From Spironucleus salmonicida (Eukaryota), in NCBI RefSeq assembly GCF_000497125.1, contig NC_090598.1:1426001-1490000 (forward strand): DNA of 64,000 nucleotides, in the 5' to 3' direction. This document shows positions 4,950 to 49,480 of the stretch, piece by piece. The notes below the pieces were generated by a model that saw only the letters and a list, made by a program, of their open reading frames with translations, ran no database searches and was not told the origin of the DNA. Numbering within the stretch: position 1 is the first letter of the stretch; every line of letters begins with the position of its first letter. A program made the position numbers and the translations under genes.

Positions 4950-4987
4950 GAGTATAATATATAATAATATTAAAAATTATTATTATA

Positions 4988-5941: not shown

Positions 5942-5978
5942 GTAATTTTATGTTTATATTTTATATTTCAATTCTAAA

Positions 5979-6689: not shown

Positions 6690-6709
6690 ATTAATAATAG
6701 ATAATCCAA

Positions 6710-8185: not shown

Positions 8186-8234
8186 TTTAATATAATAAAT
8201 AATAAATATAATAATAGCAAATATTAATATCTAG

Positions 8235-8849
8235 ATGAATTAAATTACGGAAATTAACTTTAGTTATATAGCGATGAAGATAAATGTATATTTATATAAT
8301 AAACAGGTAATAGATTATGGTTCAATCCTTAAATATCTATAAAAATAATATGATTTGTAATAGAAAATTGATTTATCAACGTTTATTTAGTATTGCGAAT
8401 TATATATTGATAAATATGACGATATATTTGAACCTGAGTATGTAAGTGATATAAAAGTTTATAATAATACGATTAAATATTTAATAAAATGGAAAGATTT
8501 TAAACTATAACCTAGTCATCTAGAAGATTGGGTTACAATTGATGAAATAGATGAAAATCTCATATATGATTTTCTACAAATCCCAAAGAATCTTGAAAAA
8601 ATGTCTGAACTTTTAGCCAATAATAAGTACTAATACGAGTAATTAAATCATCTTAGAATCTATCTAAGTCATCCTACTTTATTACATTTTGCTGTTCTAT
8701 TGAATCTTATTTAGTAACAATTTAGGGCAGTACAGAAGTAAGAGGGCTTAATGCTTGTGGCTATAGGAAATGAATAGTATCTGATAACCCGTACAGTAGT
8801 AGCTAATAATCCAGTTCTATCTTAATTTGTATTAGAAAGTATGGTTTGA
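8235..8849 (+). CDS. Chromodomain protein (204 aa)
   Basis: FEPEYVSDIKVYNNTIKYLIKWKDF...EDWVTIDEI matches the chromodomain pattern (YxVExI...YLVKWKG...TW). Confidence 0.7.
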
Positions 8850-8863
8850 GTGAAATCTAAAAA

Positions 8864-11338: not shown

Positions 11339-11380
11339 TGCGGAATTTAAAATAATAATATTAAATACAATATAAACTCG

Positions 11381-11800
11381 ATGATTTAATTGAAAATTAC
11401 CATTTCACTCCTTCGAATGATTATAGGACGGGCGGACCAATTCTAGTATGCGGATATATCGTCAATTTCTGATTTCAATTATATATATGAGTCTCACTAC
11501 TTTTCACTAAGTTTTTTAACCAATGAGTAAAACAGTTTTATATATGTAGTATCCCACTTCTACCATAAATCTAATTCACTAATAAAGATATCTTAATAAC
11601 TTAAATTTAATAATTAATGTGTTTATTGGATCATATATTTAAAACCTTATACGGCCTGCTAAGTACTTTCCGCTTCTTATTCTATTTATTTTTTTCTCAG
11701 CTTGTTACTGCTTCGTTGTTAAAAATATACTGGTATAATATTCACACCTATTTATACCAAAGGTGCTGGTAATACTGGGCTTATTCCTGGTACTTCGTGA
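11381..11800 (+). CDS. Small hypothetical protein
   Basis: Code-6 open frame of 139 aa ending in TGA. Confidence 0.35.
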
Positions 11801-12200
11801 TAAATTAATAGTAGAGCGAATTAATGAATCAGTGCATTAAGTTCTATAAATGTTTGTGGCTATACTGGAATTGGAAACAATTAACTTGGAGTTAACAATA
11901 CTTAATTAGTTTACTACTGGATAATATTATCTGTCTTTAAATAATCTGCGTTCATATTTTGTATCTAAACAGGAACTTCAACAATTGTCACATTATCAAT
12001 TTCTTATTCTACCACATAAGAATCTTATGAATAAGATGAAAATTATACAACTTAATTACTGTCTATCTTTTACAGTTATTTGATGCATTATTGTTGAATG
12101 TTAAACTATTATTATATGGAGTGATCTAAATATAAATTAATTCGATTGAAACAAAGCTAACAGAGCTGATTTTATAATAACAATTAATCAATTTTTAATT

Positions 12201-14336
12201 ATGAGCCTAATAAAGGACTCATATAATCCTACAAATCAATGTTTTATCTGCATATTTCGCAGTTCATTTGATTTATTAATAGAATTATATATATTTTATA
12301 CTATCTATAAAATGTTTATCCAATTGAATTCAGAATCAGCAGGAATTTTAGCTATTTAAGAACTCTAAAACTAGTATAATGATCAGCTTATTATTTATAT
12401 GTAAATATTATCTTCGATGAACTACACTTATTATATTAAATTTCCAAAGTAGTTTATTGATGAATTATTAGTGAAAAAACATTTTAAGAGTAAAGGTGCT
12501 AAAGTTTATAAATTTGATACCTATATGATGGCTTTTAATATAGAGCTTAATTAAATCTAGTTTACAGAGTAGTAAATTTCAAATTATAATAATGCTATAA
12601 GGATTTAATAAGAGATAACAACTACAAATTAGATACATCCAATTATGATTATAATAATTGATATCTCTTAATATAGAATAGTATAAGATTTAAAATAATT
12701 CATAAATAAAGGTTTGCTTTTAAAATAATACAAATAAGGTTAAAAAAATGTTATCGGAATGTTATTTCCAATTTAAAAGATTAATATTTAAGATATTAGA
12801 GATATAATTTTACCTAATTATAATATATTCAGCTAGTAGTTTATTACGAAAAATAAATTTCTTTTACCTCTAACAATATCCCACTTAACATTTACCACTG
12901 CAGATTGGTAACAGGTTTGCAATATAAACAGTAAAATTATAAGTGCGAAATAAATGTACACTGATTCTACACTTATAGGGCCCAATTTTATTATGAAGTT
13001 TAGTTCGCTTTAGTAATAAAGTTTAATTTTAGATAAAATAAATTCTGTATTTGTATCAGGAGTTATAACAAAAACTTGTAATATTAAAAATTCTTTTTAT
13101 GCTTCAATTTTGTATGCAGCAAACTATATTGACTATCGAATTTTTTGGTACTTAATCCCTAAAGAAATATAAAGATTTTAGTAACATAAACCAATTATGT
13201 ATCCGCCAAAATTTTGTTTGGTTGATGCATTTCCATTATTATGCTATACATAAAGTGAATCATAAAATGTTTAGATTAGTAAAATTGTATATAACAAAAA
13301 AAATTCGATAGGAATGAATTTCCTTATTTATGTTGAAACAGACACAGATATAGAAGTTTTAAAAAACTATTGCTACACTTTCCCGAAAATGCATATATTT
13401 TTTTAATATATTGGAAATTATTTTAGTATACTTGTGCATGATGGTATAATTAATCATTTAACAATCAAACAGTTTTTGAATAGTTAATTTGAATATAATT
13501 ATTCACTGCTATAATTTAAAGCTAAGTAACTTTTACTGAGTTCATAATTATTTTTATAATTATCATTTCCGACCGCACTTTTAGATAGTTTGAATGATAT
13601 CTATGCGTTTTATTAGAGTAATAATATAAATAAGAAATTAATATAGTAATCTCAAGCTTAAAACTAGAAGATACCAATAAGATAAGAAAACAAATTCTTT
13701 ATATAGTAAAATATTGGGATAATTTTTATTGATTTTGAGGCATTTTATTATGATAGAATTAATCAATACCCATCAGAATGTGGAATTTCTATTGTTATAA
13801 ATGACTAAAAATATTAGTCGTACCATTTTTTCATAAAACAAGACAACAATATATTTGATTAATTTACTGAAATATAAAAAGAAAAATTATCTTTAATTGA
13901 AAAAATAACTAATATTCCTTACAATAAATCTATTGTACCATAAGAAAATTATTTTTCTGAACATTAACTGGAATAGTTTATCAAAGACTTAAAAAGGTTT
14001 TCAAGTTTTAATTTATAATAAAAATATTTACACTAATTAGTTAGTAGTACTAGCTTATAATATGAATATTTATAGGAACCATTATTTGTTGCTAAAGGTA
14101 TTAACCTAGAAAACTTAATTTTAAATTAAAAACTGAAACTATAATGTTCACTAATAGAATTTGAAAATATATTATGTGGCTAGTAAATAAATTTAGAAGA
14201 TATGCACTCACTTAATAGACAGTATCAATATTGTGAATATCATTAGCATAATCATAGTGATTTGTGCCAAGTTCATTGTGCGCTTGATGACTGCAGATAT
14301 TTAGAGAGTAAATTTCTAAATAGGGTCATAAAATGA
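12201..14336 (+). CDS. Protein with C-terminal Maelstrom-like / DEDDh nuclease domain (711 aa)
   Basis: IFIDFEAF...YPSECGI...SYHFFIK...FVAKGINLE...CEYHQHNHSDLCQVHCALDDCRYL. Confidence 0.6.
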
Positions 14337-14351
14337 TATATTAAATTAAAA

Positions 14352-15038
14352 TCAGTTCTTACCTTTTTCTTTCCTCAGTAATTTCATCTATTTCTTAATG
14401 GCACTATTTTCTACAACAACAGTATATTTAAAATCTGAGTCGCGGATATAGACAACTAATTTGCGTTCACCAAATTTTGAGCAAGAAAATGTAGCAACGA
14501 TCATTGCGACAAAAAATTATAGAAGAAAGCTATAACCTCCACAATATAATAATATTGTGTTGAGAGTTGAGTTACTTTGTAAGTTTTTCACAAAATTATT
14601 ATTTAATAATGTTTTTAATACTTCTTAAAGCTAATTTATTTAATCCACTGATCCAATAAGAATTTATAAATAGTGAAAAGATTCTTCCAAATGAGTTATA
14701 AAATAAAGAATTCCAGAGAAAAATGAAAGAAGAAATGTAATGAAATGTAATATAGATCCAAAATTGAAAAACTTCAAATTTCTACGTTACCTAATCTACC
14801 CTACTATAAATAAAAATAGTAATGAACATGGTAATGACATTATTGTTATTGCTGTAATAGCAGAAGGAGGCATTTATGCTTGATCATTAAATAAATATTC
14901 GAAGGCTGGGAACCAATCTTATAATGCCAAAACATAAATCAATAATGATGTAGAAAGAATAATCATACATGGAAAGGCTCCAACTCTATCTAAAGAGGGT
15001 ATCATTAAAGTAACACGTGTATAAACTGGGTGACTCAT
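14352..15038 (-). CDS. Multi-pass membrane protein (228 aa)
   Basis: Code-6 frame MSHPVYTRVTLMIP... with several hydrophobic stretches. Confidence 0.55.
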
Positions 15039-15263
15039 TTATAAAGATTGAACTAATTATAATGAACAAATATTAATATATACTTGGTAATATTTAGTTT
15101 TTAGTTTTTAAATATTATTAACATAATAAAATTGATTTTAATATACTAAAAATCCAATTATATTTCATCATAATTAAATAATATACTAGATTTACATAAA
15201 TTTATATAATTATACATAATATTTATTTCTGCGATTAACTTATTATTAGTGTTTAGAATCACT

Positions 15264-18200
15264 TCAAAATACAAACTTCAGTTAAATACCTTCATCTCTG
15301 GTATAATCACCATTAATAGCACGCTAAATGTTATCAGAAAAGCTAGATATATCAGATATTTATCTTCCAGATAATCCTGCTAGTATTGCTATTTTTTCAT
15401 ACTAATCTGCATATGTTAGCAAATAATTTTCTAATACTTAAAGTAGTTATATATTTAATTCACCTATATTAAAATACGTCAATATTGTAGTTAATATGTT
15501 AACGAATGGTTCAATGCTAGCTTCATCTATATGTTCATTATTTAATATAAATTAATTAATAATATTAACTGAAAATATAGGTAATAGAGATATGATTGGG
15601 CACACCATCTAAATTACACCATTAAATAACTATTTGTTTAATGTTAAGGATCCTTTGGACTAAGAAAAAAAAATAATTTATAAAAAAATTTAATCAAAAG
15701 AATAATTCTAGAATAATACTTAACAAAGAGCAAGAAACTAAATAGATTTTAAACACTCATATTCAATCTTTGACACTAAATAATCCATACTTTCCTATTG
15801 CAACTAAAAATTAAAGCCGGAATATTAACTTATGTCGATTTGATCTATTAAGCAAAAACTATAAATATAATCTAATTCTTTTTTACTAACAATTTAAACT
15901 TTCTATAAAAATTTGTCTAAAGGTAGTGTAAATAAATCTCCAAATTAAAACTATATAAAATCTTAAATAATATATTCATTTTCTTTATTTGTTGTCTTAC
16001 ATAATTATAATTCTGTTTTTAAATCATCTGAAATCTTACAAATTGGTAATATATGTTTCAAAAGATTAGATGAATTTTAATATTCAACTATATTTAATGT
16101 AAGTTTTTCAATATTTTATTCTAAACCAGTATTAGATTATATAAGCTTTTAAAGCACTATAAATAATTATAAATCATCAAGATGTATATTAAATCTTAAA
16201 ATATGATATATTTAATCAATTTATTACTTATTACTTATTAAATTTACCGAATCTTCATCAGCGTTTGTTAAAAAGGCATAAAGCAAGACAATATCTGTAA
16301 TCTTATCTAAATACTTTAATATTTACTTTTATTATAGAATAAAAATATTCGGTTGTAATATTTTTCCTAAATAAGTAATTATTATATAATAAATATTTAA
16401 ATCCTAGGATTTTATAAGACAGGGCTAGTTCATATTTTGGCTTATTTGAATTAAACCTGCTTTTACTACAAAAATTTCATTTTAAAGCTGGCATTAAATT
16501 TAAGCTAACGAAAGGTCAACTATTCGTTAATAATTTTTACTAATAATATCTTTATTAACAATAAGGTAATAATTAATAATAAGACTCAGCTAATAAAATA
16601 AAAAAGTATAAACATCAAAACTTATTAAACAAATTATTTCTATATAATCTAACTATTTTACACTCTAAAAAGTACTTTGTTAATATATTTCTAAAATTCT
16701 TAATAAAATATCAAAAAATATAACTTAATAATCGAACGTCTGCTCTTTAAATTCAAGCAGACTTTTCATAAATTTATTTAATAATTCACCATAATTATAT
16801 TTTTATATATGTATTTATACTAATTAAGGATTGCCCTTTTGGTTAAGAAAATTAACTTAATTTACAAAATATGTTTAAAAACCATAAGATAAATTCTTAG
16901 TAAAATATTTCAAATATTTTGGTAGATATTGTACGTTGCTAAAAAATGATCCATAAAATTCTTTATCAGATATACCACATATGTAATTTCTAGAGTGTTA
17001 TTTAATGATAAAGTCCGCAGTCTTATGCAAAAATAGTTACTCTAAATCATTTATTTCCAAAACACTATCTTACTAACATCTAACATCAAATGTATAACGG
17101 TTTTATAGTTAAATCCATAGTAAATTTGATTAAATCTCCTTTCCGAATTAAATAGTATTATTGCTATATGATTGATTAGTAAACGAATATAAAATTTGAT
17201 AAATACTCTTTTATAGAATTGATGATAATTGATTGCCTTAATATTAATATTTTAAATTAGCATAGTAGCTATTTGAAGGCAGAATAAGTTAGTTTTATAT
17301 TTGTTAAAATTATAGCGGTAGTATAATTTCATATATTATATGTTAAGCATTGTGCAAACCTAAATATTATCCTTAAGCTGCAAACTCATAAAATCCATTA
17401 AATAACCTCATAATTATATTTTTTTTAGTTAAGTTATCAATAAAAGTTGCCTTTTATGAAACTTTCTCTAAAAATAAAGATAATAATTATAGATTATCTT
17501 GAAATAAATGTGAGACTAACAAAATCTACTCAATTTATTCTTGCGTTTAAACATTTTATATAATTTGATAAATTATTTAATTTGAAAAAGGTATACTCTT
17601 GGTATAAACTTACTTAATAAGTATTAATAACTGTCTTAGTATATTAATTTATTAGAACTATATATATTAACTTGTTAAATATACTATAATGCAAAGCATT
17701 CCACTATAATAATTACAAATATCATAAGTTTCTATAATCTATTAAATTGTAGATAAATCAATCTAAATTTTTAATCCTAAAACTTATAGTATAGAAATAA
17801 TGAAATTAATATGAATTATATTTGTCTCGCAATATTATCCTAAATAAAAGTAAATCTAATCTTCTGTAAAAATTAAATTTAAATTAGAAGCATCAAATTT
17901 TGTATTGCATATTAATCCGTTTTACTTGTCAAAAAGCAATTAGAATACTTATTATATTGTAGAATGTGTTATGTTCTGATTCAGTTCCATAATACATTGA
18001 TTAACTGACAATTACTCAGAGCTTAATTAAACTTAGATATTATCTTCTATGTGAGATAGAGTTTAAATAAATACCTTTAATGATAAAAAATTAACTGATC
18101 TTTATAATACATTATTACTTAATATATCTTTTCTTAAATTATCTAAATTATTTAAATAAATTAGCGCTACCATAAAATATGTGAGATGGGGGCTTTCAAA

Positions 18201-20600
18201 GGAGTTACTAAGGGCTAAATTAAAAATTTCATCTGTTATAACTAATTAAATATTTTACTTGGCCTAGAATAAACTTACGAATAAAAATAATGAGTTCAAT
18301 CTGTATTATGATAAATCATTAATTATTTTAATTACAATATAATTGAAATTTGAATCTGTAAAATCTGAAAATCTGGCGTTATATTTTAAAAATACTAATA
18401 TTGAATTAATAATTTCAGTATAAAACTCTTTATTTTAATAAATTTGCGTAGCGTTTGATTCATCTAACAAAAAGATGATGAATGAGAATGTCTATAAAAT
18501 AATTTATATATCCATGGTTCTATTAAATAAAATTATCGTATTACTAGTTTATTATTAGTTCGAAAAAACCAAGCCATCTTTGATTACAAATTATTATCTT
18601 GATAAAGTTGTAGAAGGAATAAAATTAATATAATTAAATTCTTAGGAGCTATATGAATTATCATATTATTCAGTTTCTAACACTGACTAATATTAATACT
18701 ACTTAGAATCTATCAAAGGCAATAGAAAACATTAAATACATTCTTAAATTTAAATTTAAGATTATATATCAAATTTATTGAAAAGACATTAACTTATGGT
18801 AAATTTTATAAAGAGTGTTAAAGCTATACATGCTGAGTATTTACTAAACTATTATAGCAAATTAGATATAACTAGTGCTATATGGAATGGTTTATACTGC
18901 TATGGCTAATAAAATGTTAAATAACTATATAAAAAATCAATATTCTCTGAATATTATACTACTGATAACTTTCTTAGTAAAGGCTATGTTGATTAAAGGT
19001 ACAATTTTTGGATATTATCATCAATTTACTACAAAAATAACAATTACGTCTTGTCTTTATTATTTTTTTCAGATACCATCTAAAATTAAGATAAAAATTC
19101 GTCCTCTTAATTGAAACTGTACAAAAGTTACAATACCTATTATAGTTTTAACTGTTATTAAACTTTTTCAAGAACACTTTCTAAATTAATTCCTTCATTT
19201 AACTAGTTATCATCATGTTGAAATAACAAAAATTATGTATTTAGTTTATAAGGAAGCTTTTCCTAACAATTTACAGTAAAAAACTGCATACTATAGTTCT
19301 GCATTTGAAAAATATCATTTTGAGTAAAATTTGTGACATTAACATCAAACTAAATCTCTTTATTAAAAGTAGATGCTTACATAAACTTGCTTAATATAAT
19401 ATTTTCCTCTTATTGCATCAAGTTATAACACATTTGAGATGTATAAAGCGAAAAATTATAATATTGAACCATGCACCCCAGAACAGCGCCAGTCTGCCTA
19501 GGCATCTCGTTTATTAAGTGAAACAAACACCTAACACACAGCGTGAAGAGGCTTCTACCAATTTAGGAGCAGTTCTCCCTGAGCTTGAAGACGAATTTAA
19601 GGCCAGGAAACTCCCGGTTCATGTTGTTAAGCCCGCGCTCCAACGCTCTATATTCTTCATCTTTTTTCAAGTTTTTGGATCCATATTTCATCTGAAACAC
19701 CTCTAGTTACTCCTTGACTTTCTCCAGCCGCCGAACGCTCAAAACAAGCCCTGGTGGCAGCAGAGCGAACCGCAGCGTCTTGGCAGCGAAGTAGCAGGCA
19801 GCCTTCGCAGCGCACACGAGAACATCGGCCGTTGCCCCTGAAAGTTTCTGTTGGGCAGAAGCAGCTCCCAAAACCAGCAGAACCACTTGCCAAACAGTGT
19901 CAATGACGCCTTTCAGCCGCTCAAACTGCGCAGAAATAAGCGGTTCGCCGCTCTCCACTGGTAGCGGTGGCGGTAAGATCTGCAGGAACTCACCCTACGG
20001 CGCTTCGTCGAAACCGACGAAATTCTGGTAGATTTCTGGCCCAATGAGCTTCAGCAGCAGCACCTGCAGCAGCGCGGAGCTCGCGAACTGGCAAAAGGTC
20101 AGCTTTTGCAGCGAAGCCTGGAAGTGCACCTTTGCTGCCTTGAGCATGAACGAGGCAATATTGGAGCCGAACGAGAACACAAACTGGTCGTCATGCACGA
20201 GCCTTCCCAGCAGGAGGAGCACGAAGTTGATCATCACCTATGATTATGCCGTTGGCATCAGGTCCATCACGTCGTGGAGCGTTGCAACGAGGGGGAATTT
20301 GAAGAAGTTCAGACGGATTCCTGTTATAAGCAGCTTCGCTAACGCAATGGGGATTGCATCTAGTGTGGTAAAGGTATCTATTTGTGTGAAGGATTCGTGT
20401 GCTCGGTGCTGGTCTACTTTTATATAATAGTACGAAGCTAGCACGTTGAAGAGCTATTCCAGATTTAGGTGCTATTTTATTAGTTTTCGATCATCTGTTG
20501 AAATATAGTATTCTAAGAGCTCAAGGAATGAAATTATATCTTAGTGTGGTGTGTTAATTGTTATTTTGTTGATGAGACCTATGATGACTTGTGTGTTCAT
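15264..20600 (-). CDS. Large hypothetical protein (~1778 aa)
   Basis: ORF-track fragments 19707-19958, 19995-20237 and 20244-20444 share one frame, joined by TAR codons. The frame stays open through 18.5 kb, with an in-frame TGA at 15264. Confidence 0.6.
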
Positions 20601-21881
20601 TTATTTAGTTTGGATATATATAATAATATATTATAAAACAACGTTATAGAATGATTAGGTAGGTTTAATTTTTTGTTGATCATATTTAATGTGTGATATT
20701 TAATAGTGGTCTAAGCTGTTATAATATGTACGAAAATAGTGAAATAATTGTTTTATATATAGAAGGTAAGTATTTATCACAAGGATAAAAACTACGTTTT
20801 TAACGCTAAAACTTGATTCTAGACAAAATAAATACTATAAATTCACACTCTACGCTATAAGATAATATACGACTCATTATCAGGAGACTCTTTTGCAATT
20901 ACAAACTTATTTTATTTCCAAAACTAAATTCCTTTATGATTATCAACATCTACCGTAAGAGCAATATACCTAATTGCCAAAAATTATGCAACACCAATGA
21001 TTATTTCTAACTGTTTAGTTCCAAAACTTTATCCTTAAAATTATTTCATTACATGAAATTCATATATGTATAACCTCTTTGAGCCATACTCTGCAATTAA
21101 TCTAAACGAAATAAAAGCTTATAGCGAATAAAGAATGAAAGAATTCTTTGAATAAATAAACTTTTTGAATTCACCATATGATACTTTTTTAAATTCTGAT
21201 ACATTGGCATATCCATATTAAATGACTTCATGAATTTAATCACATTTAAAGGAATTTATAATAATATAGTCAGAATCTTAAATCTTATAGGTTACTAGTT
21301 TTTAATACAACGATACTAAATATTTCATTAAAATGTTAAACTAAAATATATAGTATAATTAATAAATATGTAATGTAGTGAAAATAATGAAAATTAACTT
21401 TAACAGCTTCTTGTTTCTAATTAGTTCATTTTAGATATCTTAGATTAAATAATCTTGAATATTACATTTAATATTAAATAATTTAAGAAACTTTAATTAA
21501 AATATTAGTCTTATCCATTTATTTAATCATTTGTGTGTTAATCTGCAACTTATACTCAAATAAAAACTTAATTACAGTTAGTGCACAGTGTTTATCTATA
21601 AAATACGGAAGAGTCTATTAAATCTACAAAGTCATTAATCAGTTAATATAGCTCGTTTCGTAAAATGCTAAACGTGTAGTCGATATCTATTTAGGAATAT
21701 AATAGCTTAATAAAAGATGCATAGATCAAGACTGATACATTAGTTGAGGTATTATAATCTTACTAGTAACAATTTTCATTTTAAATAAAATAAACTTTAC
21801 TTACACATTCATTATAACTTTATAACTAATATAATTAATCATTTTCATTATTAAGTGATTGAAATATACTTAAATTAAATA

Positions 21882-24800
21882 TCATTTAAACCATTCTTAT
21901 GGCCAGATTACTGCAATACTATTAGTCCTTATTTAATCTAGTCTAAATTTAGCACGCCCAGTAAGTTTTGCACTCAATTAATCACATACTTAATTAAAAT
22001 TTTGCCATCCATCTTCTGTTAATTTTGATGCTGTCTATTGCATAATATCGAGTAAGTTTAAAACCAATAAATCCCCTAAATCGTTATTTTTATAAACAGA
22101 ATTACCAAAGCTCTCAAGTAATGGTATAATCTCTTCGATAGTCTTACTTATTTAAAGATATAAGATGTAATAAGTTAATACCAGCTCTGTTTTGATAATA
22201 ATTGCATTTCTAGAAGCTAATAATGGCTTTTTCAAATATTATACTATGCTAATTATGCATTCTGATGTCAAATCGGTTAAATCTATGATGAATTTTTTCT
22301 TTCTACAAAAATCAGCTAATTTTGTACGATTATTCATTATTTTATCTTGAAAACCTATCTTCAATTGTACTAACAATGTTCTAATAATAGGTAAAAATAA
22401 ATCTGGCTATTATTTGTAGAAATCAATTCTACCTATTTATTAGAACCAAAAATTAGGATCTTCCATTATAAATTATTCAATAAGATCAGATGCTGGTTTT
22501 ACTACCGCAGCTGGTCCATTTAATGAATCTATAGCAATTTATTAAAGTTCCTAAACGGGTCCTAATACTTTACAAGCTAAAATACCAATTTTAAGTGCAT
22601 ACTATGCGGCTAAATCTTTTAATATAAAAATATCTTAATACATTGACTTTGACTATATAAAACGAGTCATAACAGTTTTAGCTAGTTCTGTATATTTTTC
22701 TACAATTTCTATACTAAAAATTTCTCCTTAAATAAGACCTATTGAGAGATTATCTCCAAGAAGAATGAAATTATCTTGATCTTACTAAAACTATTAGTTA
22801 GAGTATATAGATGGAATACAAGGGCCTAATTCTATGAATTTTTATAGAGAATTGTAAATGACTTAAGTCATTTCCGTTCTTAAATATTTAAATATCTTGA
22901 TAGCAAATTTATTTATTTCTGGATTTTGTTAATTTATTGAAGAAATTTAATAAGGATCTTTAATAAGTGATATAATACTATACCAAATTCCTTTAGTCTT
23001 CTTATTTTCTAGTTAATAAAATAAGAACTCTCGAATTTACTTATTCCATGGACTATTCAGATATATTACTGCTAAATTAATAATCTTTGTGACATATTAA
23101 TAAAAGTTTTCATCTACATGTTCGTAAAAGTTCATAACATCTTTGTGTTCTTAAATTTACGGCAAACATGGTGGTCTTATTCCAAATATAGTATTAGCTA
23201 AGCTGAACAATATTGATTCTAATGCCTGAATTTATTTTTAAGTTATCAAAATGGTGTAAGACTAAAAACTTTCTGAGCATAATTTTATTATTACATCTAT
23301 TCCATGAAAACACTTGGCATAATACTTATGATTAACATAGATTGACGTGATAGCGAAGCTTCTAATTGAAGTTAAATTTAAATCAAAGAAAAATTAAAAG
23401 TATGTAACAAGCTATGCAATAGCTTGTAACAAAAATTTATTTTTATATTTAATTCCAGCTCTTTATATCATTTCATCTAATTTAGATTCGAATTTTACAT
23501 CCTAAATTTGTAAAATTCTAAATAATTTCGTATTTCCAGCATTCATTGGATTTTTAAGTATTGGTTCTAAAAACTCATCTGTCATTAATATTGATGAAAG
23601 AAGTATTGCAACACATGCTAATAAAGAGTCATCTTGTGCAGGAAATTACTACAAATTTAAAATTCTATAAATATTTTGTGTGATAAATGATTCTGTTCGT
23701 TTAGTTTTTCTATTATTTATAATAAACTTCTAATTTACAATATCAAATACAGAGAAATGTTCTAGCAGCAAACATTGCTGTAGAGCATGTAATATATTTC
23801 TAGTTGATGAAATATCATGCATTACTCTTGGAAAATCAAAATACGATGGGGTGATTTAATTAAAATCTATAAATTTTGCCAGTCTAAGATCTGTTAATAA
23901 TACCATCGCTTAGCTAGCTCTAAAAGTGCAATTATCAAATAATTTATTTATTAGAGAGCCTCCTATTTATTTTAATTGTGTGACAAAATTATCCTCATGC
24001 GTTGCCATGAATATATTTAATGAAACAGTTAAGAAGTCAGTATAATTAATCACCGAGAAAATATTAAATATAAGTAATTCCTATTCCAATAACATAATCG
24101 TAAGTTAAATATTATTTTAGCAAAAATTATAATAAACAATACATTTACTTAAATGCTATATTATTTACTTTTTATCTAACTAGTTGAGATCAATATTCCG
24201 CAACTTAGTATCAATCTCAGATATAAATTCATTATGTGTATGAATTAAATTTACTCCAAAGAGAACTTAATACTAATCTACTGTGAACGCACCTACCTAA
24301 ATGAAATGATATATTATCGTAATAAATTCACAATACAGAGTTAATCCAGTAAGTGTTTAAAGATATAACTTATGTGTGATAAATAATTAAAATAATTCTT
24401 AGAATGGTTATAATTTGTTAGTTTAAAATAATTAAATAAGCTAACTTCTTTAGTCAAAAAGCAAAACAGTCATACATGCCATAATCCTGTCTAAAATATC
24501 TGGTTAAATTAGCTCATCAGAATTAATACGAGAATCATTCGCTATATTTAATTTCTTTGACTATGCACATTTAATGATTTCAACTATATGAACTAATAAT
24601 TTGAATAAATTTTATTAATCTTAGTAAATATCTTATAATCTATCAATATTATCCTTTAAAATAATTTCTAATTATTACAAAAATTGCTCAACTTTTAGTG
24701 ATAATAATTTTTAAATATTTAGTTGTTTGATAAGTTGCACATCTTTTTATATATCAATAGCTATTAATGGTTATAACTTAAACTATTATTTATTTCTACC

Positions 24801-26063
24801 TATAATAATAGCTGATACCTATCCTGCCCACGTACTAATAAATAAATCGTGATTAAACTTGTTACCTTATACAGAATTTTTTAATTATTAATAGTACTCA
24901 TCAGTTTAATTAACCAAATATTTCAATTATGATTACTTTTTTATTTATTTTACAGTCATATCTGCTCCCTAAGAAAATTCTTAATCCGAATTAGCAGCAT
25001 CTTTTTAATCTTATGCAGATTGTAGTAATTGTTTTTATTTCTATAAAGCCATTAAAATATTGGCGTCATTATTCTGTGTATGTATTACAGCTTCACTTTC
25101 TACTATAACTTTACCTTTTTTATCGAATTATAAATTAATATAGTCTTCACCAAAGACTTTATCTTTACATAATTATATAAGTAAAAGTACATAAGACGGT
25201 TGATTTTATTCTTTAATTAATAATTACTCTCCAAATGTATTAAAAAATCTAAATTTTTATAAATCTGACCATGAACCTCGCTAAAATGGAACTGGTTATA
25301 AGAGCATAAATATAAGTTCATAAAATTCTTATGGTAATTATTACTGAGAATCCAAAGGTGGAATATTTTACTTGAGATGCTCTTTACCAACACTCAAAAC
25401 TTTCTATGCATACTATACATAGTCTCCCTCGTCTAAATCTTAAAATGGAAAGCGATTAAAAGCTAAGAAATATAGAGAGCATCCTAATGAATAGAAATCT
25501 GAAGCATAAGAATAAATACCATCTTTAAGTAAAGTTTCAGGGGCTCTATGCATATAACCACATTTACGTATTGATCTTTCTATATCATCGGTATCCAGAG
25601 GCTTACTTTTTGATATAGTACATGCTGATTCGAATTCAAATAATTTCAATACTCCATTCTGGTTAAGTAAAATATTTTATGGACATAAGTCATTATACAG
25701 AATTTGATTTTAATGTAAATAAGATAATGCATCTCTTAGATCTGCAGAAAATATTGCAATCGAGTTTATTGGTAAAACTTTATCTTTTAAAATAAGCTTT
25801 TGCAACGTATATGGTTAGCAGAGCTCTGTAACTAGAGTGACACCGGTATTAGTTTAAAAATACGAAATAATACTTATTATATTCGGATGCTACAATTAAT
25901 TTAATATGTGCACCTAATGTTTTATGGACTATGCTACTACTGGAACTGATGTATTGAACTCATGAGCTGCTTGAAATACAAGTGATCCATGTTAACGTAC
26001 CCGAAATATTTTAGAGCCTGAATTTCCTATCCCTAATTCCTCATAGATTTTATAGTTCTGCAT
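21882..26063 (-). CDS. ULK4: ULK4/RUNKEL-like pseudokinase with long helical (HEAT/ARM-like) C-terminus
   Basis: MQNYKIYEELGIG..., HPNII, DLRDALSYLH, ILYNDLCPQNILL (no HRD), KLFEFE (no DFG), RAPE, SDFYSLG. About 1393 aa. Confidence 0.7.
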
Positions 26064-26122
26064 TTTTAAAATTCAGATAATTATATTGAAACACTATAAT
26101 TAATTCCCTTTCAAATTTTAAA

Positions 26123-28978
26123 ATGGATTTATCAAAATATCAGACTAAATAGCAAAATCATCAATTCCCATCTGTATCAGAATTATTTTAAGATATTGAA
26201 TCGATAAATAACTATCTAGTGTAGGCATTCAGATCTTAAGATGGACCTGTTTTATAATCTTTATCAAGAGATTTTTTAAGACTAAAAACTTAATTTTAAG
26301 CATTATAAAGGATTAAACATATCAATGGTACCTATGAAGAATTATTTGTTAAAAATGGTAGAGCAGCACTTCAAGCTTTATTGAAAAATTGTATATTTGA
26401 TATATGGAACGATGTCACAGAAGCAGCATACTTAAACTTTTGTGTTGAGTACTATTAGAGATGTGATAAATCTTTACTTATGAATAAATATCGTCAGATC
26501 GACACAAACTAAGAATTTAGATTTTTCTTTTAATCTGATAATGGTATCGATGCTAATTTAAGTTTGTTTATTACAATATCTTTATTATAACTTAACGATA
26601 ATAATGATATTGAAATGTTTTTAGAAGGGTAGTATAGAGAAATTTCTCCAAAAAAGAGTAATATTGATATTAAAAATACACAACTTGAGTCAAAAAGTGA
26701 CTTAAGATTTTAATAAATTTAATCTAGTTCCGCACCTAAATAATCTAGCTAAATATATAGCCAGATTCAAAATAGACTTAATTCTTCTTAGAATTAATAG
26801 GATTAAACATATTTATAAAAATAGTTAGATATGCTAAGAGAAGAGCAGTAATAAATAGTTATATCTGCTACAGAAAAAATTGACAAATATAAATAAAAAT
26901 TAGGATAATATAGATCTCTTGAGAAAGAATTATCTAGTAAATTAGGTATTACTGAGACATAAAATGCAGTTCTTAAAGAAGAATTAGCAGGTAAAAATTA
27001 AAGAATATCGTAATTATAGAACAATTTAAATGAAATTGAAAGTAATTTTTAAATGAAATAATAAAATAATTTTTAAATAACATCAGACTATGAAAGATTA
27101 AAATCAGAAAATGAAAGATATATGGTAGACGTAAAAATATACTAAGAGAGAGCTGAATCAGCATAGCATTAACTGAAGGAATGTTCATAAGAACTACAGT
27201 CACTAAGACCATTATTACTGAAATCCTAATCGGAGGCTTCTATATCATAACATTTAAGGTAGAAACTTGTGGAAATGAATAATGAAAATGCTGACTTAGT
27301 GTAAAAATATAACTCTATTGTTGAGCAAGTTAAATAGCTTATCTAATAGTAAAAACTTATTTAGTAAGATAAATAAATTGCTGAGTAACAGGTTAGTAAT
27401 TTTTTGAATGATTAAAAATAGTCTTCGTAAATTCTGTAATAAAATAGTGAATATTAAAATCAAATAATTATCCTTTAAGGATAAGTTTAAAGCCTTAAGG
27501 AATAGTTATAGGTTACTAAAAATAAGTTATCTTAGTAAGATTATACTACTGAGATCTAAGAAAAATCCGAATAGTTATCATAAAAACTTACAGAAAATCT
27601 GAAATTAAAAGAAAGAGTAGCAGTATTTGAGGCTTAAATTCAAAGTAAATAAATAGAAATCTAGGAGTTAACATATAATGATAATTAGAAATAGTAATCA
27701 ATGATATAAGAGATATAGTCATTATAACAAAAACTTTAAGATATTTAAAATGATATTGAATCGACCTAATTCTACAAAACTTAAATTTCTCAAATGAAAA
27801 CTGAAATTTCATCATTTTAAAGTTAAGTTTAATAAAAGAGTTAATTACTTGACGATAAAAACGAAGACATAGGTAAGTTGAAATTATAAATTTAAGCCCT
27901 AACCGCAGATGCTGCTATGTAATCTAAAGCATCTGAACTCTAGGATATAATACGTAAATTGAAAGAATAAATTAATTAATTGGAAAATGAGAACACAGAC
28001 ATATAAAAAGCCACTAGAAAATTAGAAATAGAAGTCATCTCTTCTAAGGGTATTATTGAATAATACGAGTAACTTAAGACAGAATATACTGAAAAATGTG
28101 CATAGGTCAATAAGTAATAATCATAAATTTAAGAATTGAAACAATAATCCGACTAAAAAACTTCTGATATTGAATTGTTAACAAAACAACTTGATTTAGG
28201 GAAAGAGTAACTTTAATAACTTACAGAATAATTTAATGCAATATAAGAGTCTTAGGAGACTGATTTACTTACATCTACTAATGCTTCTGCTATGGAGTAG
28301 CAACTACAAGAAAAAGATGATATCATAAGAGATTTAAGAGATGTAGCGTCCTAGTATTAAAATCAGGCCCATGCTCTCTAAGATCAGTTAAATAATTCGG
28401 TTTCACATGATCGAGTAACTTAACTTCTGGAGTAAACTGAAAAATTAACATTCAAAATAAAAGATTTAGAGTCTGAAAACTCAGAATTAAAGAAAAACTC
28501 TTAAGATACCGATTATTTTGGGCATTCGCTTAATCCGACATAAAGAGAAATATAACTTGAAAAAGAAAATAAATCACTTAAAAATTAACTTGAGACCTAC
28601 GAATTTTCAGGACTGCAAGCAACATAAAATTCCTGCTTTAATTGTAGTTAGCTAAAATAGCAAATAGAAATGAAAACACACGAAATTGAAAATATTAAAG
28701 ACGAATTGGACTCCACAGCATAAGAACTCGAAATGTTGAGAGATTTCAGACTCAAAGAACTAGAGAATGAAATCGCATCACTTAAAATGAATAGTAAATC
28801 TGGAGGAGATGATATGATTAGATTAAAGCTCTAGCATTTAGTAGAAGATGAAATTGACGGTTTAGGCGGCCTAGATTACCTTGATGACGAATTTATGACT
28901 TACCAAGGCGACAAACCAAAGAAAAATTAAGAAGTTGAGAGAATTAAAAACAAAATTAAAGCGCTAATTGATATGTGA
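26123..28978 (+). CDS. Long coiled-coil protein (951 aa)
   Basis: Code-6 frame strongly enriched in Q/E/K/L heptad-like sequence. Confidence 0.65.
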
Positions 28979-29003
28979 TAACTTTTAAATTGTATAAAAT
29001 ACG

Positions 29004-34418
<5,415 letters not shown>

Positions 34419-34472
34419 AATTTGACAAACTAACTTAATTATATATGTATAATAAATATTATTAATATTGAA

Positions 34473-35231
<759 letters not shown>

Positions 35232-42599: not shown

Positions 42600-42674
42600 A
42601 AGACGGTGACGTCGCAGGACGTGGTGTACGCGCTGAAGCGCCAGGGCAAGACGCTCTACGGCTTCGGGATCTGA
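42600..42674 (+). pseudogene. H4: 5'-truncated histone H4 fragment at the array boundary
   Basis: Only [24 protein letters not shown] is present, joined directly to AT-rich unique DNA. Confidence 0.9.
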
Positions 42675-42856
42675 GTGATGCTATTCTTGTGGTACTCGTT
42701 GTGTGAGCGTGTGGTGCATAGGGCTTCCGTGTCTAGTGGGGTGGCGTACTTCCTGCACAGTGCCATAGTGCATATATGTAATATAATAATACTCATTCGG
42801 GCTTCCCGCAAGTATGATAGTGTATATAAATAATATAATACTAAGGACTCACGATT

Positions 42857-43234
42857 CCCGCAAAGTACCATACTGCCCGAGTATGGTATAATAGTACCAA
42901 ATTACGGCTCCCGCCCAAATGCCATACTTCACATATGCAACATTATAATCATAATCCTTCATGGCTCCCTTCCACTCGGCTGGTTTCCCATGGGCGGGAT
43001 GTCAAGGGGGCCTTGCCGAAGCCCTTGCCCTTGCCTTTTCCCAACGTCGGTTGGCATGCAGCGTATAATAATGTAATGTTGGTGTCCCTTCCGATATGTT
43101 AAAGTGGGAATAGGCAATATAATAAAGGGGATTTGCCCTTTCCCGCGAAGTATGATAGGGCATATATACGGTATTATAGTGAGTATTCCCGCTCCCCGCA
43201 AAGTACCATACTGCCCGAGTATGGTATAATAGTA
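42857..43234. repeat. 40-bp direct repeat within each H4 spacer (42857-42896 and 43195-43234), each containing a 9-bp-stem hairpin
   Basis: CCCGCAAAGTACCATACTGCCCGAGTATGGTATAATAGTA occurs twice, with inverted arms TACCATACT/AGTATGGTA. Confidence 0.9.
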
Positions 43235-43959
43235 GCAAATTACGCCTCCCGCCAAAACAGCATTCTGCACATAAATACGCGTGGGCGTATATAAATAATA
43301 CATATATGGCCTATAGCCACTATATGTGCGAGGTTCCTCTACCACCCCACACGGTATTCATATGCTCATAATGGCGAAGTGGGCCGTCGTCCACCTCGTC
43401 CCCACCAGAGGAGAGAACTCGCCCGGTTTGCCCTTGCCCTTGCCCTTCCCGGACGTCCGCAGGAGCTCGTCCGGAGGCTGGCAGTACCGCCCGGTCTCGC
43501 CCGGCGTGGCACGCACTTGCTTGGGCGGCGTGCGATGGCGCGAGATGACACCCGATGCATGGCACGGCGCGAGATCATCTTAGATGGCCTGCCTGCCGTG
43601 CCCCGCGCCCCGCGCCCATATGGGGCCTACGGGGCCGAGATATGGAGTTCCGGTGAAAATGAGTCTGCAGTTCTGCATATTGAACACGGTAAATTTAGTA
43701 GATAGATATTTGTATACATCACATATAACATACATACCTATATTCCATAAATCCCTATATGCATCTATATATACTTATACCTATATTCGCACACCGCAAC
43801 TACTTTCGTCACTATAACTATATATTATTCATATTAAAACTCGCTCCCGCCCCCGCCCCAACATATATATTTTATATAGCATATATAAGTATGGGTTCGC
43901 GAACCGATAGCTGGTTTCATCACCAACCTCATAATGCAGGAGTGAGGGTGCTATCAACA

Positions 43960-46900
43960 ATGTCTGGAAAAGGAAAGGGAAAAGGTTTTGGAAAGGCGAC
44001 AGACTCGGAGAACACTAGCGATAGTGTAGACCCTGTTGCTCTCACCGCCTAATAAATTCGTATTAGAAGCCTGTTCAAACAGGCACCTGCTCTACCCCAA
44101 CCCCAACCCCAGTCGATCGCTAGTCACATTTCTTCTACCATGAAGAAGCAATAGGCACCTCCAACGTCTAATGGTGACCCCTCGACTTTGACATATTCCC
44201 CCTTCACATAAGTTTCAAGCGTGAGACTGTTCAAGCAGGGCCAGGCAAGCCGGGAGGCTCCTGTGCTCTCAGATAAGACCAATAAATCTATCATGAGCTT
44301 CGTGAAAGCAAGAGAAGAAGAAAGAGCCCCGCAAGGTGCTCCGGACACTTCGGCTGCCGACACTCAGAATCGCGCGCAATTCCCTTCCACACAAATTCAC
44401 GGGGAAACTACAGCTGCGCTCGTTAACTGCCAAGACGAGTAAGCTTAGGAGGTAGCTAGTCTAGCTGCCCCTAACGCAGCGGAAGTGACTGAACAACCGC
44501 CCTCCTCATAGGTTGCCAGTTAAGAAGGGGCCCCAACCGATTAACCTAGCCTCTAACCAGAGAGCTAAGAGGAAAGCGAGGCCCCGCCTCGCCCGGATCC
44601 CCCAGATGCTCCGGACTACGGGATAGACCCACCAATTCCCAGGCTACCCTCACAAAACATACCGGTAGAGCCCAGAGTCAGACCTCAACTGAATTCAATC
44701 ACCCGGTATGGTATCGTCCACGAGACGAGATCTCAGACAAGACTTATTCCTGAGACACGTGCCCCAAGCACAACAGAAAGTAACGAACACGCTAGACCAA
44801 GGAACCCTGACAAGCCTTTTGAATGTCAGGCATGCACCTTCGCGTCGTCCGACCCCACGAGCCTGCTGAGACATCACGCGCTCACGAGAGGCGGATAGCA
44901 CGATATAAAGTTCCCGCTACTTAGATACAAAGAAGTTTACGAAGACCCCAAACTCTTCAGATTCTACTGTGGAATCTGTAATCACCCTTTTACGAAGAAA
45001 TTAAATGTCATGCTCCACCTAATGGATGGAAAATGCAAGAACAAGTAAGGAATGACAAACGAAGCTGCCCAATTGCTAGTAAGAAATAGAGATGTCTATA
45101 GCCTCGAACTAGAGGAATAGCTGGCAAAAGCATCGGCCGCCAAGGCGGCAAGAGCGAAGAGTATAGCAGAATAAATAACTGCACCCAAAATAGGACTTCC
45201 ACCGGAAGCGACGATCAACCTATCTCCTTTAGGTTGCGCTACGGACAAGAAGAATTTAGCATTACGTTTTATCCAGATGAAACTGGAGATTGAAAACGGA
45301 GCTGACATCCTAGACGCCTTTAACTAATTCATAGGCGCATTCAGAAGAAAACAGGCATGTAACACCAGACGCGATACCAATCAAAAATAGATAGATTTCT
45401 GCTTTTAGAGAGGACAGACTGGAAAGGCATGGAACCTTATTAAGGAAAATTAGAACAAGTAGAACCTATCCCCAGAAAACGCCAGCTCCAGACCGGACCT
45501 GGTTAGAGAGTTATTTTAGGAAAACCGGAAACCCGAATATGAATCGGCATCGCGGTAGGGATCAGTAAGAACAGCGCTGCAAGCGCCAACGGCAGAAGAG
45601 ATTACGAAGATAATCCTATAGTACCGGGATGGCAAAGCAGGCGGCCCGAGTGGCATTCTTCCAGCCCACCTGAAAGAACTTGAGAAGTCTCATCACATCT
45701 CAAACATTCTTGCGAAGGTATACAAACTAATACTTGATACACCATCCCTAGTGAACAAGACTAGGAGACTATTCGAATACCGGATAATCTTCATCCCAAA
45801 GAACGCGACCAAGTTTAGACCGATTTGCATACAGGAGTTATTCCTATAAGTCCTGCACAAAGCACTGGCAGAGAAGATGAAGCAGCAACTAACCCTAGGC
45901 AATTATCAATTCGCCTTTACCAAAAACGCTCTCCTCAGAGCCAAATATTAAGCTAATATCATGCTTAAGAATGGGCTCACCCTTACTTCCCTTGACGTAC
46001 GAAACGCCTTTAACGCCGTACCTCATAAAGTAATCGAAGAAGAACTCGTGAAAGCCGGCCTAGCACCGGAAACCAACCAATACATCCAAGCCTTTTTGAT
46101 GGCGCGGAATGCGGAGGGGTTGGAAAGGCTAGGCACCGGCGTCCCCCAAGGGGATCCATTGTCCATGATGCTATTCTGTGTTGTAATGCGCCCGATCCTA
46201 GATCGGCTCGCAGGCAAATACAAGGTTATCGCATCGTACGCGGACGATGTCCTGATAGGTCACGATTCAGGAGTAAACCTCAAAGACTGTGAAAGCGTCT
46301 TTGCAGACTACGGGCTAACCCTGTCTGTGGAGAAATGCATAACAGCCTCCCCCACCCAAGCGATTAAATTCGTTGGGTAAGAATTTAAGGACAAACCGAT
46401 ACCGTTAACAGATCACTTGCTCCAAACCGCTCAGGATGCCTTCCTACTCCTCGAGCAATCGAAGCTCGGGACCACCCAATAACGGTTCCAGATGTTTGTA
46501 CAATGTATTGTTCCCTCAGTCAACTATGGCCCACTTGTGGACGTCACGGATGACTAGGAAGCCGGATATACGAAGATAGACGACAGCCTTGTTGCCACCA
46601 CCTCGCTGATAGCGGGACTAAGCATAAAGATTGAAACTCTATTGGATAGCTAGATCCGGGGTGGAATGAACGTGATCACACCTGGTCGCTTCTACCCACT
46701 CATGACCGCAGCACGCGATGAATTCCATGAGAACAATCACTGCGTCTTTAGAAATATCAGGGAGAAAATCAAAGAACTCGTTCCGGACGATCCAGATCCT
46801 GGACGCCCGATGATTTTCCCCTGCATCTTAGGAGCCACCAGGCTCCCTGGACAGTCTGTCCAGTATCTCTTGAACTCGGCTTTCGGCCCGGTAGCGACAC

Positions 46901-47520
46901 CCAGTAAAACCCATTTGTGTACGCTATGCGGTACCCCTAAGATTGGAGATCACGACCAAAAATGCAATAGAAATAGCGGAATCCGAATAGTTAGACACAA
47001 CAAGGCTGTCTCAGCCGCGATGAACTGCCTAGCGAAGTACGAGCCCCGTGAAATAACACGTCAATAAGCTCCTGAAGGAAAGTTTTATCCGGACTTCAGA
47101 ATCATTGTAAGTAAAATCCTGACAGTAGACCTAGATGTCACGTTTACTTCGCAAGAGAATATGGACGCGAAATTTGCAGAAAAGGTTAGAAAGCATAAAT
47201 TGCCTGACCCTAACCAGACTATAATCCCAATGGTTATCTCACATGAACTTTAAATTCATCGCGAGACACTCAAGTTGTTGAAATTCCACTTCCCGGAGTT
47301 CAACTACAGGAAATTTATGGAAGCGGTGGGAACTGCGACCTGTTTCTATAGACAGGACTCAGTTCGAAACAACACTGCACGATAGATCATAGCTCTCCAG
47401 GATAGGAACTATGGTTTAGAGGAAGACGTTGCAATACGTCTTAATTGGAGAAATGCTGCGAAGAATAACAATCGCAGGCGCCAGCACGCCAGAGGGAGTG
47501 CTGTCGCACCCGGGCCGTGA
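43960..47520 (+). CDS. H4(1-13)-fused retrotransposon ORF: zinc fingers + reverse transcriptase + CCHC + restriction-like endonuclease (1186 aa; first element-internal ATG at 44140)
   Basis: No in-frame TGA from the H4 ATG to 47518. Motifs: CQAC..HH..H, CGIC..H..C, GKAGGPSG, FIPK..FRPI, LDVRNAFN, GVPQGDPLS, YADD (46237), CTLC..H..C, RHN, YPDF, DLDVT, EKVRKH. Confidence 0.92.
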
Positions 47521-47610
47521 GGCCAGGGAAAACAAGAAAACCCCCCCCGACAGGGGCAGTAAAGATCCCATATACGCAATGAGGAATGGCAGTACTCGAG
47601 TGATCTTTTA

Positions 47611-47642
<32 letters not shown>
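44000..47642 (+). mobile_element. Site-specific RLE-type non-LTR retrotransposon, copy 1 (full length, 31-A tail)
   Basis: Interrupts H4 after GGAAAGGCGA. Single RT-RLE ORF, ~90-nt 3' UTR, poly(A) at 47612-47642, and H4 resumes at CAAATCCGAG. Confidence 0.95.
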
Positions 47643-49180: not shown

Positions 49181-49480
49181 ATGTCTGGAAAAGGAAAGGG
49201 AAAAGGTTTTGGAAAGGCGAAAAGACACAAATCCGAGAAGGATGCACTCACAGGCATCACCAAGCCTGCCATACGCAGGTTGGCGCGCAGAGGTGGCGTG
49301 AAGAGGATCTCGTCCACGATCTACCCCCAGACGCGCGAGGTGCTGAAGGCGTTCCTGGACGTGGTCATCAGGGACTCGCTGACCTACACTGAGCACGCGC
49401 AGCGCAAGACGGTGACGTCGCAGGACGTGGTGTACGCGCTGAAGCGCCAGGGCAAGACGCTCTACGGCTTCGGGATCTGA
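49181..49480 (+). CDS. H4: Histone H4 (99 aa)
   Basis: [17 protein letters not shown]...[20 protein letters not shown]...[18 protein letters not shown]. Confidence 0.98.

What the first reader, a model, noticed from the sequence alone, without database searches (positions are those of the whole stretch)
43009..43456. Spacer holds antisense, synonymously recoded copies of the H4 5' end, one stopping exactly at the insertion site
Seen: the minus strand at 43047-43009 reads ACG TTG GGA AAA GGC AAG GGC AAG GGC TTC GGC AAG GCC = [13 protein letters not shown]. That matches H4 residues 3-13 and diverges right after Ala13, where the element inserts. A second copy (43456-43430) reads TSGKGKGKG. Both start with ACG in place of ATG and use GGC/AAG codons. 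The pair recurs in each spacer. Inference: relics of inverted H4 copies broken at the target site, decoy binding sites for the element protein, or a source of antisense/dsRNA against the H4-element leader.
Basis: partly seen in the sequence, partly recalled or inferred. Interest (0 to 1): 0.72.

Follow-up and report, generated by a model that had tools for sequence, protein, structure and literature searches.

The report
Inverted fossil of histone H4 start
Every repeat of this protist's histone H4 gene array carries a backwards, older-spelling leftover of the gene's first 13 codons that ends where a site-specific retrotransposon inserts; it is most likely a harmless fossil, but it may record a conflict in which the host changes silent codon positions of the target.

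Summary
The window holds a diplomonad H4 tandem array (1585-bp unit) with a site-specific non-LTR retroelement after H4 codon 13. Copy 1 (43009-43047) matches 11 H4 residues, which a planted (GGCAAG)n tract reproduced in 0-1 of 20,000 trials. Copy 2 is a deleted duplicate of the same relic, so the two are one event. The antisense-RNA reading is not supported: H4 mRNA ends about 320 nt upstream, the one stranded spacer RNA sign is minus-strand (H4-sense), and no Piwi or RNase III match was found. The relic uses the GC-ending codons of the H4 body and of H3, so it probably keeps an older spelling; the living H4 5' end looks recoded. In other diplomonad contigs I found related elements at H4 codon 14, a separate recoded H4 5' fragment 328 nt behind an H4 gene (1 of 2 informative loci), and silent changes piled into codons 1-24 of one H4 pair (16/23 vs 8/74). 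Best reading: an inert fossil of an H4 copy broken at the element's site. A wobble-tolerant decoy stays open. The scan noted this relic before, on the next window of the same array.

The parts
43009..43047 (-). Copy 1: inverted H4 codons 1-13 (ACG for ATG, Leu for Ser2, codons 3-13 silent changes only)
43430..43456 (-). Copy 2: duplicate of the same relic, codons 1-9 (keeps Ser2), lacking 34 nt that include codons 10-13; holds four G3 runs
   Evidence: (family D11)
42974..42987 (+). Left flank shared by both copies (11 of 13 bases match 43417-43429); contains the 9-mer that also lies in the H4 and H3 promoters
42810..42935 (+). First arm of the internal spacer duplication (83% identical to 43148-43273), built from 52-57 bp subrepeats
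43148..43273 (+). Second arm of the internal spacer duplication
42836..43546 (-). Spacer RNA, polyadenylated at 42836, covering both copies in H4-sense polarity; 5' end unknown
   Evidence: untemplated poly(T) before 42836 in X6; an X5 contig ends at the same base; the DNA run X1 goes on
42600..42691 (+). H4 3' piece at the array edge, stop at 42672-42674, AGTGA signal, poly(A) site at 42689-42691 (site shared by all units)
43906..43918 (+). Motif upstream of H4, also about 40 nt upstream of H3 starts
43960..43998 (+). Current H4 codons 1-13, A/T-ending codons, in frame with the element ORF
43999..47642 (+). Site-specific non-LTR retroelement with poly(A) tail; fused ORF 43960-47520 (1186 aa, RT domain 612-808)
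49181..49480 (+). Intact H4 gene used as reference; unit length 1585 bp

Best explanation
The two pieces are one fossil: the first 13 codons of a former H4 gene copy, in an older GC-ending spelling, left inverted in the spacer. Steps: (1) shown: it derives from H4 and is not a chance repeat; (2) shown: it was duplicated once with the left part of the spacer, copy 2 then lost 34 nt, and array homogenisation put both into every unit; (3) inferred: ATG changed to ACG before the duplication, and the living H4 5' end has since shifted to A/T-ending codons; (4) inferred: the relic ends at codon 13 because that H4 copy was cut or occupied by the element there and the 5' piece was rejoined backwards, perhaps in place beside its promoter motif; (5) inferred: it has no present function and is only carried within a low-level minus-strand spacer RNA.
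For: Match far beyond chance even with a planted repeat, and the motif occurs only in H4 units. Shared flank of both copies, 11 of 13 bases, shuffle p 0.0035, with a clean 34-nt gap. Codon style: copy 1 GC3 10/12, H4 codons 41-99 58/59, H3 codons 2-15 13/14, living H4 codons 2-15 3/14. End within 1-2 bases of the element's 5' junction. A plus-strand H4-promoter-like stretch abuts copy 1 (anchored p 0.004-0.018, chosen after seeing it). A separate recoded H4 5' fragment ending at codon 11 lies 328 nt behind H4 in L047 (9 of 11 residues, 0 of 1500 nulls), and related elements sit at H4 codon 14 in L046 and L064. Start codon lost; neutral decay not rejected (p 0.09, range 0.02-0.34). No such fragment in the H2B array spacer or H2A/H3 flanks.
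Against: No H4 body, element or minus-strand promoter homology survives beside the relic (all p > 0.05), while codons 3-13 have no amino-acid change; that contrast hints at constraint, though the piece was picked for this property. The link between the end point and the element rests on one event here (roughly 3 in 99 by chance if ends were uniform; my estimate) plus one near miss in L047. L048, the other diplomonad locus with long flanks, has no fragment. The direction of recoding is inferred from codon style; no close outgroup DNA was available. A fold-back at copy 1 is not supported (z -0.66 to +1.09).
Confidence: 0.58

Rival explanations
1. Kept decoy. The element protein reads mainly first and second codon positions upstream of its cut, so the recoded copies bind it but cannot be cut, and two decoys per unit lower insertion into H4.
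For: Mapped from R2Bm coordinates (-38 to -7 bound upstream, -6 to +1 cut; PMC10499050), the bound region is H4 codons 4-14 and the core is codons 5-9, which are identical in both copies; the cut region is absent. Homing endonucleases in protein genes tolerate changes at all wobble positions (PMC3159444). 0 of 18 spacers carry an insertion at the copies. L047 has a similar fragment at a similar distance, 328 vs 334 nt.
Against: No binding data. The R2Bm mapping is an analogy to a distant protein. The copies differ from the live target at 3 of 13 core bases. The element holds 6 of the 16 H4 starts in G000 and is strongly represented in the RNA? runs. Neutral decay is not rejected. L048 lacks a fragment.
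Confidence: 0.15
2. Co-opted or convergent DNA motif: the purine-rich tract is a host protein site or G-quadruplex in a spacer made of promoter-like modules, and its likeness to H4 is secondary.
For: CCCTT occurs 8 times on the plus strand of the spacer, 3 of them outside the copies. Copy 2 has four G3 runs. The spacer holds phased 52-57 bp modules and a genome-enriched 9-mer (123 vs 9 control).
Against: Phe10-Gly-Lys-Ala13, Ser2 and the ACG position are not explained by a repeat. Copy 1 has only three G3 runs. The motif is absent outside H4 units.
Confidence: 0.1
3. Antisense regulator: plus-strand read-through past the H4 poly(A) site pairs with the 5' end of H4 and H4-element mRNA.
For: A plus-strand RNA over copy 1 could pair with the H4 leader at -44.4 kcal/mol (perfect match -70.6). 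A second AGTGA lies at 43179 on the plus strand. Contigs cannot exclude plus-strand RNA.
Against: Poly(A) is added at 42689-42691, and the only stranded spacer sign is minus-strand. Silent changes weaken pairing. No Piwi or RNase III match in G000 (a loose first look), and Dicer, Argonaute and RdRP were not found in S. salmonicida (PMC3916229). It could not tell H4 mRNA from element mRNA.
Confidence: 0.06
4. H4-tail mimic peptides are translated from the minus-strand RNA, from ACG or as part of the 125-codon frame through copy 2.
For: The RNA is polyadenylated and carries the copies in sense. Both ACG frames run 32 codons to TGA, and their tails align weakly (p 0.036).
Against: ACG starts lie far inside the RNA with ATGs upstream. 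Open frames are common with one stop codon. No Pfam match above cut-off for the 125-residue frame. Frames are not tied to the poly(A) signal.
Confidence: 0.05
5. Chance likeness of a GC-rich microsatellite.
For: Copy 2 alone is expected in about 10% of trials given a tract.
Against: Copy 1: at most 1 in 20,000 given a tract; motif confined to H4 units; parallel fragment in L047.
Confidence: 0.02

Closest known systems
Pseudogene fragments in or beside tandem gene arrays, spread by concerted evolution (general knowledge, recalled)
   Same: Dead piece of the arrayed gene, start codon lost, identical in all units, internally duplicated.
   Different: Inverted, only 13 codons, differs from the live gene at silent positions only, and ends at a retroelement's insertion site.
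H4 tandem array with reverse transcriptase copies described in Spironucleus salmonicida (PMC9509377; passages seen)
   Same: H4 genes in tandem with RT copies between them, plus pseudo-copies.
   Different: The passages seen say nothing of site specificity, spacer structure, inverted 5' pieces or a spacer RNA.
R2Bm upstream motif (RUM) and insertion site (RASIN) (PMC10499050; passages seen)
   Same: By position the relic equals the upstream bound region without the cut site.
   Different: R2 targets rDNA, not a protein gene; this element is 27-31% identical to Giardia-type RTs, and its contacts are unknown.
Homing endonucleases and wobble-tolerant targets in protein genes (PMC3159444; passages seen)
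   Same: A parasite sits in a conserved coding site where the host can change only silent bases.
   Different: Here the parasite is a non-LTR retrotransposon that destroys the gene copy; tolerance is untested.
Sterile antisense transcripts from bidirectional promoters in Giardia (cited within PMC3916229; passage and reference title seen)
   Same: A low-level polyadenylated RNA on the strand opposite to the gene, upstream of the next H4 promoter.
   Different: Its start is not mapped, and that paper describes sharper transcript boundaries in S. salmonicida.

Membership tests
H4-derived pseudogene fragment | Homology to H4 beyond chance and low complexity | tested here: met
   (DNA score 40, null maximum 26 in 1000 shuffles)
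H4-derived pseudogene fragment | Cannot encode H4 (start lost, body absent) | tested here: met
H4-derived pseudogene fragment | Evolves neutrally | tested here: inconclusive
   simulation p 0.087 (0.023-0.34), open to selection bias
Whole inverted H4 gene or H4-element relic | Promoter upstream and H4 body or element downstream on the same (minus) strand | tested here: not met
   all p > 0.05
Natural antisense / RNAi trigger | A transcript complementary to the target mRNA | tested here: inconclusive
   only a minus-strand (H4-sense) end was seen; contigs cannot exclude plus-strand RNA
Natural antisense / RNAi trigger | Dicer and Argonaute in the host | tested here: not met
   0 candidates for PF02171 and PF00636 (not proof of absence); PMC3916229
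Decoy site for the element protein | Covers the region expected to be bound and lacks the cut site | tested here: met
   by analogy with R2Bm coordinates only
Decoy site for the element protein | Binds the protein and lowers insertion | not testable with these tools
   needs binding and insertion assays
Decoy site for the element protein | Present in relatives that carry the element | tested here: inconclusive
   fragment in L047, none in L048; neither contig shows an element
Known structured RNA family | Rfam match | tested here: not met
   4 matches, all E > 4 and far below cut-off
Site-specific RLE-type non-LTR retrotransposon (neighbouring element) | RT domain, poly(A) tail, one insertion site in all copies | tested here: met
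   6 of 6 copies
Site-specific RLE-type non-LTR retrotransposon (neighbouring element) | C-terminal CCHC finger and restriction-like endonuclease | tested here: inconclusive
   motifs recognised by eye from recall; Pfam found only RT

The most novel reading that the evidence does not exclude
Diplomonad H4 genes and their site-specific retroelement are in a conflict fought through silent codon positions: the H4 5' end around the target is recoded repeatedly, and recoded, uncuttable copies of the upstream binding region are kept in the spacer as decoys that soak up the element protein, having arisen separately in at least two lineages.
Probability: 0.14. Interest if true: 0.82.

Novelty: new variant of a known kind. 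Interest (0 to 1): 0.46.

Why it matters
As a fossil, the relic matters mainly as a record: it suggests that the live H4 5' end, the landing site of a retroelement, has changed its silent bases, and one H4 pair from other diplomonads shows silent changes concentrated in that region. Site-specific retrotransposons mostly target RNA genes (general knowledge), where silent escape is impossible; a protein-coding target makes escape and wobble tolerance directly testable with short DNA probes. A decoy function, if shown, would be a DNA-level defence in a lineage reported to lack RNAi.

Tried and rejected
Rfam: nothing. Exact-pattern scan of metagenome contigs for this H4 start: 0 matches. Homology of the sequence after either copy to the element 5' end or to H4 codons 14-99, and of the minus-strand sequence before ACG to the H4 promoter: not significant. 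Element 5' end as a diverged H4 copy: p 0.37. A third H4-like 12-mer near 43130-43141: p 0.076. Fold-back hairpin at copies 1 and 2: not better than shuffles; the 715-nt minus RNA folds at z -2.8 on only 20 shuffles. Promoter likeness upstream of the L047 fragment: rank 0.06-0.36. 5' excess of silent changes between this H4 and L046-L048: none, sites saturated (p 0.29-1.0). Copy 1 is closer to L048's H4 start (3 of 33) than to its own (7 of 33); I take this as shared codon preference, not descent. None of 16 RT-family homologues begins with the H4 tail (P0003-P0018). No run on record as RNA was listed; X5, X6 and X8 are guesses. Flank control in non-diplomonad H4 loci: best 3-5 of 11 residues in 15 of 18 loci scored, 3 dropped for lack of the anchor motif, and several N-termini were mis-picked, so it is weak. 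Paper searches gave 0 papers; others listed nothing on such relics (listings only). A look-alike search for the 125-residue frame was not obtained, so that frame was tested against Pfam only.

Full report
Setting. The window reads with TAA/TAG as Gln and holds, from 42600 on, a GC-rich array (about 50% against about 22% in the flank) of 1585-bp units: a 300-bp H4 gene and a 1285-bp spacer. The H4 is of diplomonad type, 89% identical over residues 1-45 to Hexamita H4. G000 has 16 H4 starts and 18 spacers, on C3 and C34; C34 may be a second copy of the same locus. Six units carry a 3.65-kb non-LTR element after H4 base 39/40, in frame with the H4 ATG, with a poly(A) tail rejoining H4 at base 48. 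An H4 array interspersed with RT copies has been described in S. salmonicida (PMC9509377, passages seen), and I use that species' literature as the nearest guide.

The observation. Copy 1 differs from H4 codons 3-13 at 7 of 33 bases, all silent third positions. Copy 2 alone is weak (about 10% given a tract). The GKGKGKG pattern has 52 matches in G000, all in H4 units; a shorter version has 7 matches elsewhere among the 100 of 111 listed. The H2B array spacer and the H2A and H3 flanks hold no piece of their own genes longer than 5 residues, apart from a neighbouring H3-type gene.

One relic, not two. The left half of the spacer is a duplication (126 nt, 83% identical) built of 52-57 bp modules. 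The copies share a left flank (11 of 13 bases, p 0.0035), and copy 2 equals copy 1 minus 34 nt. Copy 2 keeps Ser2 and copy 1 keeps codons 10-13, so together they cover 12 of the 13 codons, with ATG already ACG. The shared ACG is therefore one mutation, and presence in every unit reflects homogenisation: the 18 spacers differ at only three positions, none in the copies.

Which side was recoded. G/C-ending codons make up 10 of 12 in copy 1, 58 of 59 in H4 codons 41-99 and 13 of 14 in H3 codons 2-15, but only 3 of 14 in the live H4 codons 2-15 (p 0.0003 against H3). H2A and H2B show a milder 5' dip (5-7 of 10), so part of this may be a general ramp. The simplest reading is that the relic keeps an older spelling. 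This is inference from codon style.

RNA. Three runs guessed to be RNA, from one study, cover the spacer at contig depth 448-1329 (112 for one X5 contig at 43517-43999), against 0-4 in the flank, about 18,000-30,000 in H4 and 4,000-18,000 in the element; the tool warns that such depths are a poor measure of expression. Poly(A) ends at 42689-42691 (X5, X6) put the end of H4 mRNA about 320 nt before copy 1. An untemplated poly(T) before 42836 in X6 marks a minus-strand RNA ending there; an X5 contig ends at the same base, X8's listed contig starts at 42867, and the DNA run goes on across it. A TGA lies 13 nt before that end, as for S. salmonicida poly(A) signals (PMC3916229, passages seen). This RNA carries the copies in the same polarity as H4 mRNA, so it cannot act as antisense through them (-16.7 kcal/mol against -44.4 for a hypothetical plus-strand RNA). 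Plus-strand read-through is not excluded. No Piwi or RNase III candidate was found, in line with PMC3916229.

How it arose. A whole inverted gene should leave a promoter before ACG and H4 or element sequence after Ala13; neither is detectable. Instead the 9-mer found upstream of H4 and H3 starts lies on the plus strand at 42979, 21 nt left of copy 1, with weak likeness to the H4 leader up to the copy's edge (p 0.004-0.018, noticed first and tested after). That fits an in-place inversion of the 5' piece of an H4 copy broken at the element's site, but the 9-mer is enriched genome-wide (123 against 9) and may be an independent site. A snap-back hairpin is not supported here.

Other diplomonads. 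Of 26 metagenome loci, 4 are diplomonad-type H4 (90-92%). L047 has, 328 nt after its H4 stop (334 here), a sense-strand fragment reading MKGKGQGKGFG, 9 of 11 residues, never reached in 1500 nulls per model; 5 of its 6 differences in codons 3-11 are silent, and it ends at codon 11 inside a hairpin (z -2.4 to -3.8). L048 has none; L046 and L064 have too little flank. L047 and L048 encode the same H4 yet differ silently at 16 of 23 codons up to codon 24 and 8 of 74 after (p 1e-7; cut chosen by eye; 7e-6 at codon 13). Histone paralogue pairs in G000 show no such excess (p 0.15-0.65), though one is saturated and two are nearly identical. Gene conversion of the 3' part would give the same pattern, and neither contig shows an element.

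Function. One changed residue among 20 since the duplication has probability 0.09 under neutral decay (0.02-0.34 by rate), and the piece was picked for its match, so selection is not shown. The decoy idea survives on anatomy: R2Bm binds -38 to -7 and cuts at -6 to +1 (PMC10499050, passages seen), which maps to H4 codons 4-14 and 14-17, and homing endonucleases tolerate full wobble recoding (PMC3159444, passages seen). Against it, the element occupies 6 of 16 starts, and no binding data exist.

Novelty and verdict. Searches (listings only) showed no description of these relics; subscription papers and all supplements were not seen, and the supplements of PMC9509377 could annotate the spacer. 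The scan's note e1-7142210 reached the same fossil reading for copy 1 on the next window; I had formed mine before reading it. New here are the single-origin test, the strand argument, the codon-style comparison and the parallels in L047 and L048. Verdict: a real H4 relic, most likely inert (0.58), decoy possible (0.15). Interest 0.46; new variant of a known kind.

Noticed in passing
window 42782-43250: Seven 52-57 bp modules, each with a TATAAT-like start and mostly a TCCCGC core that resembles an E2F site (label recalled); two contain the same perfect 9-bp hairpin (42866-42888, 43204-43226). Possibly phased S-phase control elements.
   Followed up: partly
window 43906-43918; L016-L020 upstream of H3: A 13-15 base motif lies about 40 nt upstream of both H4 and H3 starts; its 9-mer core has 123 matches in G000 against 9 for the reversed control. 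Candidate promoter element.
   Followed up: partly
window 43999-47642: The element is covered at contig depth 4,000-18,000 in three RNA? runs, not far below H4, and has the host AGTGA signal before its poly(A) tail.
   Followed up: no
L046:1-1125 and L064:1-1020: Two different related retroelements in a metagenome, both joined to diplomonad H4 at codon 14, about 6 bases upstream of the 3' junction here.
   Followed up: partly
L047:388-456 against L048:616-684: Silent changes between two H4 genes with the same protein are piled into codons 1-24 (16/23 against 8/74).
   Followed up: partly
L047:1016-1062: Sense-strand recoded H4 5' fragment with a partial inverted copy right after it, forming a hairpin.
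   Followed up: partly
G000:C3:1504698-1504900 (L012): At the right edge of the array the spacer continues as a strongly diverged, less GC-rich version of the unit, as if left out of homogenisation.
   Followed up: no
L016-L019 against L020; L027: Four H3 copies have almost only G/C-ending codons while a fifth with the same protein has about half; H2B forms its own 2250-bp tandem array on C7.
   Followed up: no
window 34457-35231: A (TAT)n array of about 258 copies inside a long minus-strand frame (poly-Asn).
   Followed up: no
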